A stretch of DNA of 64,000 bases, taken from IMG/VR virus record IMGVR_UViG_3300032770_000014, positions 1-64,000 of that record; one strand, given 5' to 3'. The DNA is from a virus. The notes below the pieces were generated by a model. It was not told the origin of the DNA. It did not search any database and saw only the letters and a list, made by a program, of their open reading frames with translations. Both the position numbers and the translations under genes were made by a program. Of the stretch, positions 36,985-38,516 are shown in pieces (positions within the stretch are counted from its first letter, which is position 1; every line of letters begins with the position of its first letter).

Positions 36985-37773
36985 ATGGCATTCGACATCT
37001 TCAAAGGCGGCAAGCTCGCGCCAGTTCACCTGCCGTGGCACGTCGCCCTCAGTGACCACCTTGACGCCGCCGCCAGTTGGCCCCCAGTCCCGCCGCAGGG
37101 ATGGGAATACGCCGTACCCCAGTCCGAGATGAGTGTGCTCGGCAACGACCAGTATGGATGCTGCGCCGAGTCCGGAGCGTGCGGCCTAGCGCAGATACAA
37201 AGCTGCAACGCTAATCCCACTGACCCCTTCGTTCCCACGACCGCCGAGGCGCTGGCGCTCTACACTGCCGTCACCGGGTTCAACCCGAACGATCCGAACA
37301 GCGACCAAGGGACAGTCTTAACCGACCTGCTCACCTACTGGCAGAACACCGGCTTCGAGTTGACTACCCGCTCCGGCAAGACGCGCCTAAGCCAGATCGT
37401 CGGGTGGGCCTCGCTCGACATTTCCAGCTTCGCGCTGCTGCGGTGGGCCGCGTACACGTTCGGCGGCTCCTACCTTGGCATCCAGTGCCCACAGAAGTGC
37501 GAGACGGACACAACCAACTGGAACTTCGGTCCTGGTCTGCCTATCGCTGGCGGTCACTGCATTGTGCAAGCGGGCGAGGGCGCAGCTGGCGGCAAGATGC
37601 GCACGTGGGGTCTGTTCATTCCCGCATCGGCTGGCTTTATGGGCGCGTACATCGACGAGGCCTATATCATTTGCTCAAAAGACTGGGTTAATAATCAAGA
37701 TAAGAGTCCGTCAGGCTTAAATCTGGATAGCCTTCTTGCAGCAATGAAACTAGCGGGATCGAGTTCACAATGA
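36985..37773 (+). CDS. Papain-like cysteine peptidase
   Basis: GNDQYGCC (Cys), GGHCIV (His), TWG motifs. Confidence 0.7.
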   Translation: MAFDIFKGGKLAPVHLPWHVALSDHLDAAASWPPVPPQGWEYAVPQSEMSVLGNDQYGCCAESGACGLAQIQSCNANPTDPFVPTTAEALALYTAVTGFNPNDPNSDQGTVLTDLLTYWQNTGFELTTRSGKTRLSQIVGWASLDISSFALLRWAAYTFGGSYLGIQCPQKCETDTTNWNFGPGLPIAGGHCIVQAGEGAAGGKMRTWGLFIPASAGFMGAYIDEAYIICSKDWVNNQDKSPSGLNLDSLLAAMKLAGSSSQ

Positions 37774-38516
37774 GTAGAGCGAAAATTCATTCCGGCGTTT
37801 GCCTTGCCTGTTGTTGCTCTTTCCCATCCGAGAGAACCAAGACACAATTTTGTAGTCGAAGCTGTGCATCGAAGGCTACGCAGCGTATGCGCAAGGAACG
37901 CGGAGACTTTAAAAACAAAATCTTGGATCATGTAATTCTTCGCGCAGTGAATTTAATTAACTCAGGTATGACTTGGAAGAACGCGGCCAAAGCTATAGGG
38001 TTGGACCATACGACCTTGCGCAAAAGAGTTAGACTCCTTGGTTGTCCTGTTCGCCGTGGACTCCGTGGCAGCAGACTACCAAGGACTTTGAATGTTCCCA
38101 CCGATGACGCTACTCTAGCCTATATTGCAGCGATGATTGATGGAGAGGGATCAGTCCAAATGTGTAGGGGGAAACGGCTCTCGCTTTGCGTCTACATTTA
38201 CAACACTAGTCTTGATTTGATGAAATGGCTTGCTTTGGTTGGCGGCGTGTATGTGCCTCGGCACACGTTGCCGCATCGTAAGCAGGGCTATGAGTGGCGA
38301 GTAAAAGGCAGGGAAGACGCCCTTGCTTTGCTCATGGCCGTTGAGCCTTTCATGATTATTAAAAAGAAACAGGCCCACGAAGCTATTGAATTTTTGCAAA
38401 GGGAAATCGGAAAGAACTATTTCAACGCGCAAAACGTATCACCAACGGGCTTGAATCTCAACAGCCTTGTCGCCGCCATGCAAGCGGCCAAGCGCAACAG
38501 ACCACCTGCAATTTGA
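37770..38516 (+). mobile_element. Free-standing LAGLIDADG homing endonuclease fused to displaced peptidase C-terminus
   Basis: YIAAMIDGEGSV motif, FCSRSC zinc motif, HTH segment, PFMIIKKKQA; AT-rich. Confidence 0.85.

What the first reader, a model, noticed from the sequence alone, without database searches (positions are those of the whole stretch)
37670..38516. LAGLIDADG endonuclease inserted in the peptidase 3' end: duplicated C-terminus, old tail now fused to the endonuclease
Seen: the peptidase ends KDWVNNQDKSPSGLNLDSLLAAM in AT-rich codons, and the LAGLIDADG ORF ends KNYFNAQNVSPTGLNLNSLVAAM (14/23 identical). Established: terminus duplication by homing endonuclease genes is described for fungal mitochondrial genes. 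Inference: the same strategy operates here in a phage lysis-region gene, with the endonuclease borrowing the displaced tail and stop codon.
Basis: partly seen in the sequence, partly recalled or inferred. Interest (0 to 1): 0.72.

Follow-up and report, generated by a model that had tools for sequence, protein, structure and literature searches.

The report
Endonuclease cassette replacing peptidase gene end
A selfish DNA-cutting-enzyme gene sits about 35 codons before the end of a phage protease gene, keeps that gene whole with its own differently spelled copy of the end, and finishes its own reading frame on the displaced original end; this layout is documented in fungi and yeast, and I found no published account of it in phages.

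Summary
The 262-aa ORF (36985-37773) and the 248-aa ORF (37770-38516) both end in the same about 30-residue motif (15/30 identical, BLASTP E 1e-6).

- **Where the tail belongs.** It is the conserved C-terminus of the first ORF's family, a papain-like cysteine peptidase by predicted fold. It is not part of LAGLIDADG enzymes.
- **The cassette.** A block of about 760 bp (about 37663-38424) has lower GC. It holds a substitute peptidase tail with a stop (GC3 0.33, against 0.79 in the gene body) and a single-motif LAGLIDADG gene with an N-terminal zinc ribbon and HTH. That gene has no stop of its own. It reads in frame into the displaced native tail (GC3 0.62) and uses the native stop, 1 nt before the next gene's ribosome-binding site.
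- **Occupancy.** None of the 80 related viral peptidase loci scanned carries the insert.
- **Mobility.** A 70%-identical endonuclease from another metagenome is fused to a different peptidase-clade tail.
- **A second case in this genome.** An HNH gene at 54103-54828 shows the same footprint.

The mechanism matches fungal mitochondrial mORF gene hybrids and yeast WHO elements. Seven literature searches found no phage description. This scan has already noted the same layout on other DNA: 15 findings in at least 15 genomes. Cleavage and homing are untested.

The parts
36985..37773 (+). Hybrid host gene: papain-like cysteine peptidase, 262 aa (native body plus imported tail)
   Evidence: 247 homologues of 245-265 aa. 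No Pfam hit; PHROG 19005 at E 1.6e-22. AF2 pLDDT 91.8. Foldseek top hits are xylellain 3OIS (E 2e-8, TM 0.63), then cathepsins and papain. C60, H191 and W208 are invariant in 27 sequences.
36985..37662 (+). Native body of the peptidase gene
   Evidence: GC 0.64, GC3 0.79. 15-19 of 21 nt are identical to empty alleles L023-L025 up to about 37660-37675, then identity drops to 8-11 of 21.
37663..37773 (+). Substitute (imported) peptidase tail with its own stop; 5' part of the cassette
   Evidence: GC 0.40, GC3 0.33. It encodes a complete family-type tail (ICSKDWVNNQDKSPSGLNLDSLLAAMK...), which AF2 models as a strand and two helices at high confidence. It ends LAGSSSQ*, unlike any listed homologue.
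37663..38424 (+). Inferred mobile cassette, about 760 bp (boundaries +/- about 15 nt): substitute tail, stop, and a stop-less endonuclease ORF
   Evidence: GC trough of 0.39-0.53 in a 0.58-0.65 background. Identity breakpoints against empty alleles. Absent from 80 related loci. No promoter or terminator inside. No Rfam intron.
37770..38516 (+). Endonuclease ORF, 248 aa; its ATG overlaps the peptidase stop (ATGA) and it ends at the native peptidase stop
   Evidence: PHROG 5046 at E 1.7e-15. A 99% copy (P0121) sits on another contig.
37797..37868 (+). N-terminal zinc-ribbon-like motif, C11-x2-C14 ... C28-x3-C32
   Evidence: The CxxC...CxxxC pattern is conserved in subfamily alignment A5.
37926..38039 (+). 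Three-helix HTH-like domain (residues 53-90)
   Evidence: AF2 helices 53-64, 69-76 and 80-90. Weak Pfam HTH_psq and HTH_Tnp_1 hits, below threshold.
38100..38414 (+). Single-motif LAGLIDADG core (residues 111-215; motif LAYIAAMIDGEGS)
   Evidence: AF2 pLDDT above 90. Foldseek top hit is I-CreI at E 4e-7. The family profile hits I-MsoI and I-CreI; E126 aligns with the catalytic Asp and K198 with the conserved Lys.
38415..38516 (+). Displaced native peptidase tail plus native stop, now the C-terminus of the endonuclease ORF
   Evidence: GC3 0.62. Best matches are P0017 (84% over 25 aa) and P0007/L024 (68% over 31 aa, including AAK.N.PP), always at the peptidase C-terminus. 14-18 of 21 nt match empty alleles from about 38445. 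AF2 shows a low-confidence linker (220-225) before the tail helix.
38518..38534 (+). AAGGAG ribosome-binding site and ATG of the next gene, 1 nt after the native stop
   Evidence: Read from the sequence. The next gene (38532..39098) has a homologue in the same position in L039.

Best explanation
A free-standing homing-endonuclease cassette has inserted about 35 codons before the stop of a phage papain-like peptidase gene.

The cassette is about 760 bp. In order, it holds a differently spelled copy of the peptidase's last 30-35 codons with a stop, then a single-motif (I-CreI-type) LAGLIDADG endonuclease gene with an N-terminal zinc ribbon and HTH. The endonuclease gene starts on the peptidase stop (ATGA) and has no stop of its own.

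After insertion the peptidase is completed by the imported tail. The native tail is pushed downstream, where the endonuclease frame runs into it and ends at the native stop, just before the next gene's ribosome-binding site.

Inferred mechanism, by analogy with mORF and WHO elements: the enzyme cuts unoccupied peptidase alleles near codons 225-235. Repair from an occupied phage during co-infection copies the cassette in. The recoded imported tail destroys the target site, so the occupied allele is immune.

Shown here: the anatomy, the composition, the empty alleles, the family assignments, and a related endonuclease on a different host tail.

Inferred: cleavage, the target site, immunity of the occupied allele, and current mobility.
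For: - **Anatomy and composition:**
- **The tail belongs to the peptidase family.** All listed homologues of 245-265 aa carry it. AF2 shows it as an integral strand and helices at high pLDDT.
- **The tail is not part of the endonuclease family.** Hits align only up to about residue 215. Subfamily members end 8-12 residues after the last core helix.
- **Empty alleles:** 80 of 80 related viral loci, three of them at 72-79% identity.
- **The downstream tail is native.** It has the AAK.N.PP extension of the closest relatives. Its similarity tracks the ranking of the gene bodies: 15-19 of 23 in the top relatives, 7-12 in distant ones.
- **Mobility.** P0122 (70% identical endonuclease, other metagenome) is fused in frame to a different tail. 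That tail is 95% identical over 20 aa to P0055, whose body is only 57% identical to this peptidase.
- **Long association with this gene.** P0124 (L009, 39% identical, same architecture) sits directly after a distant peptidase homologue with an ATGA overlap.
- **The enzyme looks intact:** I-CreI fold, catalytic Glu and conserved Lys.
- **Same footprint with an HNH gene in the same genome**.
- **Published precedents for the mechanism:** PMC3630166, PMC7282813, bioRxiv 10.64898/2026.08.13.744650.
Against: - No cleavage or homing data exist, and the host and cut site are unknown.
- At the amino-acid level the two tails are about equally close to near relatives (upstream 14-18 of 23, downstream 15-19 of 23). 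The native/imported call therefore rests mainly on codon composition, DNA breakpoints and the AAK.N.PP extension.
- Only three occupied records were found: this one, a 99% copy, and P0122.
- DNA for P0122, P0130 and P0135 could not be fetched, so I could not test whether the substitute tail travels with the endonuclease.
- The tail matches of P0130 and P0135 are weak (E about 0.005).
- Pfam LAGLIDADG_3 is below its threshold (15.4 against 22.5 bits).
- The cassette ends are known only to about +/- 15 nt.
Confidence: 0.85

Rival explanations
1. Fossil cassette. The layout arose by a terminus-replacing insertion, but the endonuclease is no longer mobile (inactive, or its target is gone) and the arrangement is now inherited vertically.
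For: Only two near-identical records and one 70% relative were found. The window copy has C133 where P0121 and P0122 have Y.
Against: The ORF is intact, with a conserved catalytic Glu, Lys, zinc ribbon and a confident fold. The displaced tail is still undecayed and in frame. The same lineage sits on two different host tails. The strong compositional contrast has not ameliorated.
Confidence: 0.2
2. Selected fusion. The peptidase-type tail on the endonuclease is functional, for example as a helix that binds a partner of the peptidase or controls the enzyme. It would be kept by selection rather than being a passive displaced remnant.
For: Two solid and two suggestive lineages keep the frame open into a tail. 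AF2 models the tail as a helix with pLDDT about 80.
Against: Most subfamily members have no tail. The tails differ and each matches a different local peptidase clade, as expected for host-derived DNA. Between the window and its 99% copy, changes concentrate in the tail: 2-3 in 33 residues against 1 in 215 (Fisher p 0.045 to 0.008). A low-confidence linker separates the tail from the core.
Confidence: 0.1
3. Assembly chimera. Two phage variants were joined at the conserved tail sequence in a metagenome assembly, giving a false duplication.
For: The record is a metagenome-assembled viral contig. The tail is a conserved repeat.
Against: The two tail copies are only 58% identical at DNA level, too low to mis-join. 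The same peptidase and the same tail-fused endonuclease occur on another contig (P0001 cluster, P0121). P0122 independently shows an endonuclease-tail fusion. The ORFs are exactly coupled (ATGA).
Confidence: 0.02
4. Group I intron or intein. The insert is spliced out at RNA or protein level, and the upstream tail is incidental.
For: LAGLIDADG genes commonly live in introns and inteins (established knowledge).
Against: No Rfam intron at E up to 1. There is no Hint domain: the ORF is zinc ribbon, HTH and one LAGLIDADG core. The upstream gene already has a complete family-type tail and stop, so no splicing is needed.
Confidence: 0.01

Closest known systems
Mobile endonuclease ORFs (mORFs) forming 'gene hybrids' in fungal mitochondria: Allomyces macrogynus atp6 (Paquin, Laforest & Lang 1994, PMC45324, cited in PMC3630166); Glomus atp6, atp9, cox2, nad3 (Beaudet et al. 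2013, PMC3630166)
   Same: A free-standing LAGLIDADG (or GIY-YIG) gene is inserted near the 3' end of a host gene. The element brings a diverged C-terminal copy that completes the host gene, and the native C-terminus is left downstream. The inserted and native copies are far less alike at DNA level than at protein level (64-81% nt in Glomus; 58% nt here).
   Different: The host is a phage genome and an operon of coupled genes, not mtDNA. The endonuclease has an added N-terminal zinc ribbon and HTH. Here the endonuclease is out of phase with the upstream gene (ATGA overlap) but in phase with the displaced tail, whose stop it uses. In Glomus atp6 and nad3 the mORF is in phase with the upstream gene.
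WHO elements of Torulaspora and Lachancea yeasts (Coughlan et al. 2020, PMC7282813; Osborne, Monnin & Wolfe 2026, bioRxiv 10.64898/2026.08.13.744650)
   Same: Described as a third category of homing element, distinct from introns and inteins. Each element is an endonuclease gene plus an alternative 3' part of the host gene (FBA1), and each homing event replaces the host gene's 3' end and leaves old 3' fragments downstream. The endonuclease combines LAGLIDADG with a zinc finger. Cleavage is allele-specific.
   Different: WHO proteins are intein-derived, have two LAGLIDADG motifs and a C-terminal zinc finger. This protein has one motif, an N-terminal zinc ribbon and no Hint domain, so it is not a WHO family member. 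WHO replaces half of FBA1 and builds clusters of up to 9 elements; here about 35 codons are replaced by a single element. The WHO gene is not fused to the displaced fragment.
Free-standing phage homing endonucleases (T4 seg and mob genes; review PMC2988022) and I-CreI/I-MsoI (PDB 1BP7, 1M5X)
   Same: A promoter-less cassette embedded in an existing polycistronic unit. It has the I-CreI-type single-motif fold and catalytic residues.
   Different: The T4 seg and mob genes sit between genes, or split a gene into pieces; the review holds no occurrence of 'duplicat'. I-CreI and I-MsoI are intron-encoded and lack the N-terminal DNA-binding domains.

Membership tests
LAGLIDADG homing endonuclease, single-motif (I-CreI/I-MsoI) type | LAGLIDADG helix ending in a catalytic acidic residue | tested here: met
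   The motif is LAYIAAMIDGEGS. E126 is invariant in A5 and aligns with the Asp of the DGDGS motif of I-MsoI and I-CreI.
LAGLIDADG homing endonuclease, single-motif (I-CreI/I-MsoI) type | alpha-beta-beta-alpha-beta-beta-alpha core fold | tested here: met
   The AF2 core (residues 111-215) has pLDDT above 90. Foldseek PDB top hits are I-CreI (E 4e-7, TM about 0.57-0.60 on the target), I-CvuI and I-MsoI.
LAGLIDADG homing endonuclease, single-motif (I-CreI/I-MsoI) type | Passes a curated family model | tested here: inconclusive
   Pfam LAGLIDADG_3 scores 15.4 bits, below the 22.5 cut-off. A profile of the subfamily reaches I-MsoI at E 6e-15 (tandem) and about 1e-6 (single), and I-CreI at 1e-4.
LAGLIDADG homing endonuclease, single-motif (I-CreI/I-MsoI) type | Site-specific cleavage of the unoccupied allele | not testable with these tools
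   Needs protein expression and a cleavage assay.
Terminus-replacing homing elements (fungal mt mORF gene hybrids; works like WHO elements) | Endonuclease gene directly downstream of an intact host gene, followed by a second partial copy of the host gene's 3' end | tested here: met
Terminus-replacing homing elements (fungal mt mORF gene hybrids; works like WHO elements) | The in-gene copy is foreign and the displaced copy is native | tested here: met
   GC3 is 0.33 against 0.62, with the body at 0.79. DNA breakpoints lie at about 37660-37675 and 38424-38445. The AAK.N.PP extension is shared only by the downstream copy and the closest relatives. Caveat: amino-acid identity alone does not separate the two copies.
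Terminus-replacing homing elements (fungal mt mORF gene hybrids; works like WHO elements) | Presence/absence polymorphism at a fixed site in the host gene | tested here: met
   80 of 80 related viral loci are empty. Occupied: the window, P0121 and P0122.
Terminus-replacing homing elements (fungal mt mORF gene hybrids; works like WHO elements) | The imported end makes the occupied allele resistant to its own endonuclease | not testable with these tools
   Only the prerequisite is seen: the tails are 58% identical at nt level, and 6 of 13 identical residues share a codon.
WHO protein family (HO-like) | Intein-derived (Hint) domain, two LAGLIDADG motifs and a C-terminal zinc finger | tested here: not met
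   The protein has one motif, an N-terminal zinc ribbon plus HTH, and no Hint region. It is an analogue in mechanism, not a member.
Group I intron or intein | Ribozyme core or Hint splicing domain, with the host gene interrupted | tested here: not met
   No Rfam match. The host ORF is closed by its own tail and stop.
Papain-like (clan CA) cysteine peptidase (host gene) | Papain fold with a catalytic Cys on the N-terminal helix and a His on the beta-barrel lobe | tested here: met
   AF2 pLDDT 91.8. Foldseek: xylellain at E 2e-8, then cathepsins K, B and L and papain. C60 starts helix 60-76. H191 and W208 are invariant. No Pfam hit. Activity is untested.

The most novel reading that the evidence does not exclude
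A dedicated lineage of zinc-ribbon/HTH/LAGLIDADG endonucleases has been tied to the last about 35 codons of one phage peptidase family for a long time (members at 31-70% identity). It swaps that gene end between phages in a WHO-like arms race.

In this reading, the stop-less design that makes the enzyme terminate at the host gene's native stop is a selected feature. It would keep translation of the downstream gene coupled. This would explain why tail-less relatives (P0124, P0125, P0272) still end in ...KAA*, the commonest native end of the peptidase family.
Probability: 0.3. Interest if true: 0.65.

Novelty: new variant of a known kind. Interest (0 to 1): 0.5.

Why it matters
Terminus-replacing homing is textbook only for fungal mitochondria, and was recently named a third category of homing element in yeast (WHO). 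Seeing it in a phage has three consequences.

- Homing endonucleases can colonise the inside of phage coding genes without introns or inteins.
- Each homing event exchanges a gene end between phages, which makes these cassettes a source of local mosaicism and of diversity in protein termini.
- Gene callers will routinely mis-annotate such endonucleases as carrying a host-protein 'domain'.

This locus offers a compact, testable case: a 248-aa enzyme, natural empty targets at 72-79% identity, and a second endonuclease family (HNH) using the same layout in the same genome. Because this scan has met the layout in many other phages, the single instance is of moderate interest. The recurrent read-through into the displaced end is the part that still needs an explanation.

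Tried and rejected
The contigs of P0002, P0003, P0007, P0121, P0122, P0130 and P0135 could not be read.

**Searches that found nothing useful**
- Viral-contig scans with the endonuclease, P0130 and P0135 found no close relatives.
- The single metagenome scan gave one locus, L009.
- The genome scan gave 80 distant LAGLIDADG loci, none next to a peptidase homologue.
- Seven literature searches for a phage description of terminus duplication by endonuclease genes found none. PMC2248197, PMC10448857 and PMC2988022 were read and do not describe it. The library is not exhaustive.

**Readings rejected**
- Intron: no Rfam hit.
- Intein: no Hint domain.
- Promoter or terminator inside the cassette: none found.

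**Approaches abandoned**
- Amino-acid identity of the two tails to homologues does not by itself tell native from imported.
- A first ungapped comparison of the last 150 nt of the gene body was mis-registered. It was replaced by a gapped alignment.
- I did not try to predict the recognition sequence.

Full report
**Source.** The window is part of a 93.6-kb viral metagenome record, estimated 93% complete.

**1. Observation**

ORF A (36985..37773, 262 aa) and ORF B (37770..38516, 248 aa) overlap by ATGA. ORF A ends ...KDWVNNQDKSPSGLNLDSLLAAMKLAGSSSQ*. ORF B ends ...KNYFNAQNVSPTGLNLNSLVAAMQAAKRNRPPAI*.

- BLASTP of the two ORFs finds only this stretch: 15/30 identical, E 1e-6.
- At DNA level the 23-codon block is 40/69 identical, and only 6 of the 13 identical residues share a codon.
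- GC falls from about 0.63 to 0.39-0.53 between about 37660 and 38440.
- GC3 is 0.79 in the ORF A body, 0.33 in the upstream tail, 0.48 in the ORF B core, 0.62 in the downstream tail and 0.73 in the next gene.

The observation and its coordinates are correct.

**2. The host gene**

ORF A has no Pfam hit and matches PHROG 19005, of unknown function. It has 247 homologues in metagenomes, nearly all 245-265 aa long.

An AF2 model built on 27 homologues is confident (pLDDT 91.8). Its best structural matches are xylellain (3OIS, E 2e-8, TM 0.63), followed by cathepsins and papain. C60, H191 and W208 are invariant. 'Papain-like cysteine peptidase' is therefore supported by fold and by the catalytic pair. 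Activity is untested.

The neighbouring genes make a lysis role plausible but unproven. They are a small membrane protein upstream, a signal-peptide protein downstream, and a PHROG 'endolysin'-like gene. The same order holds in L039.

**3. Whose tail is it?**

All listed homologues of ORF A end in W[LV]NAQxxSP[ST]GL[DN]L..L.AAMK... In the model this stretch forms the end of a strand and two helices at high confidence. It is an integral part of the peptidase.

It is not part of the endonuclease family.

- An exhaustive HMMER search with ORF B gave 3125 hits. The best 150 align almost without exception only up to about query residue 215.
- In an alignment of the zinc-ribbon/HTH/LAGLIDADG subfamily, members stop 8-12 residues after the last core helix. 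The exceptions are the window, P0122, P0130 and P0135.
- Searched against 198 peptidases, the window extension hits 116 of them and the P0122 extension hits 94. Every hit lies at the peptidase C-terminus.
- P0130 and P0135 give only weak hits (E about 0.005), also at C-termini. Tail-less controls give nothing.

**4. Which copy is native?**

Three lines of evidence point to the downstream copy as native.

- The closest relatives (72-79% identical: L023, L024, P0002, P0007, P0020) end ...AAMxAAKANIPP... This extension is shared only by the downstream copy (..AAMQAAKRNRPPAI).
- The downstream copy's similarity falls with the rank of the gene body: 15-19 of 23 in the top relatives, 7-12 in distant ones. 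The upstream copy is closest to the family consensus throughout.
- Against three empty alleles, DNA identity is 15-19 of 21 nt up to about 37660-37675 and then 8-11. On the other side it rises to 14-18 of 21 from about 38424-38445.

With the GC3 values, this places an imported block at about 37663-38424. The amino-acid comparison alone would not decide the matter.

**5. The endonuclease**

ORF B has three parts: C11-x2-C14...C28-x3-C32, a three-helix HTH-like domain, and one LAGLIDADG core (LAYIAAMIDGEGS).

- The AF2 core has pLDDT above 90 and best matches I-CreI (E 4e-7).
- The subfamily profile reaches I-MsoI and I-CreI. E126 aligns with the catalytic Asp, and K198 with the conserved Lys.
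- Pfam's own model is below threshold.
- Confidence drops below 50 at residues 220-225, before the tail helix.
- There is no Rfam intron, no Hint domain, and no promoter or terminator inside the block.

**6. Distribution**

None of the 80 viral loci that hold the peptidase gene carries the endonuclease.

Occupied records are the window, a 99% copy on another contig (P0121), and P0122. P0122 is 70% identical and comes from a separate contig (1031 nt, JGI). Its fused tail is 95% identical over 20 aa to the end of P0055, a peptidase whose body is only 57% identical to ORF A. The same endonuclease lineage on two divergent host ends argues for movement between phages.

In L009 a 39%-identical endonuclease of the same architecture follows a distant peptidase homologue with an ATGA overlap, and no displaced tail remains.

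Between the window and P0121, changes concentrate in the tail: 2-3 in 33 residues against 1 in 215 (p 0.045 to 0.008). This fits a passive, host-derived end.

**7. Same genome, other family**

On the minus strand, the PD-(D/E)XK gene (54841..56874) ends in 40 AT-rich codons (GC3 0.38 against 0.67 in the body) and reads ...RVPNHPKENVLVQIQEK*. The HNH ORF after it (54103..54828) ends ...ERPNHPKEGLVEIDGH*, with GC3 0.65 against 0.45. A homologue of the PD-(D/E)XK gene, L183, ends ...REANHPQELVQIENS*. This is the same footprint.

**8. Mechanism**

Shown: the cassette anatomy, the empty alleles, the intact enzyme family features, and two host tails for one lineage.

Inferred by analogy:
- the enzyme cuts unoccupied alleles near the junction of body and tail;
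- recombinational repair from an occupied phage copies in the substitute tail and the endonuclease gene;
- the recoded tail destroys the target site.

The endonuclease frame ends at the native stop (38514-38516), 1 nt before AAGGAG (38518-38523) and the next ATG at 38532. I propose that this keeps the native termination and reinitiation context of the downstream gene. This is untested.

**9. Comparison and novelty**

The layout is that of fungal mitochondrial mORF gene hybrids (PMC3630166, which cites Paquin et al. 1994) and of yeast WHO elements (PMC7282813; bioRxiv 10.64898/2026.08.13.744650).

It is not a WHO family member: it has one motif, no Hint domain, and its zinc ribbon is at the other end.

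My searches of the held library found no phage description. That library is incomplete.

This scan has already recorded the same layout on other DNA: 15 findings in at least 15 genomes, several of them in phages.

**Verdict.** This is a real, well-supported example of a known kind in a setting where it is not yet documented. Its distinctive and recurrent trait is read-through into the displaced end. Interest is moderate.

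Noticed in passing
window 54103-56874 (- strand): A second terminus-replacement footprint. The PD-(D/E)XK gene's last 40 codons are AT-rich (GC3 0.38 against 0.67) and end RVPNHPKENVLVQIQEK*. The following HNH ORF ends ERPNHPKEGLVEIDGH* in GC-richer codons. Homologue L183 ends REANHPQELVQIENS*.
   Followed up: partly
L009:1-848 (Ga0209656_10093952): A 39%-identical endonuclease with the same zinc-ribbon/HTH/LAGLIDADG architecture sits directly after a distant peptidase homologue (ATGA overlap) and overlaps the next gene by ATGA, with no displaced tail. 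It ends ...RKAA*, as do P0125 (...AKAA*) and P0272 (...LKAA*). This is the commonest native end of the peptidase family (..AAMKAA*). It may be the last codons of a deleted displaced tail.
   Followed up: partly
L039:309-1139 (IMGVR_UViG_3300050013_000186): A peptidase homologue whose last 35 codons have GC3 0.34 against 0.70 in the body, with no endonuclease downstream. It may be a substitute tail left behind after loss of the endonuclease.
   Followed up: partly
L010:1684-4635 and near-copies L011-L015: A 193-aa LAGLIDADG ORF (2785..3366, +) lies antisense inside a 983-aa SNF2-like helicase ORF, whose frame stays open right through it.
   Followed up: no
window 38532-39098, compared with L023, L024, L061 and L039: The gene after the peptidase differs between close relatives. 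L023, L024 and L061 have a Tat-signal-like protein of about 180 aa. The window and the more distant L039 have a signal-peptide protein of 188-190 aa. The region just downstream of the cassette is therefore mosaic.
   Followed up: no
window 9361-10800 and 16807-18045: Earlier first-reader notes claim two further endonuclease cassettes (HNH-AP2 and GIY-YIG) that replace 5' gene ends in this genome. I did not check them.
   Followed up: no
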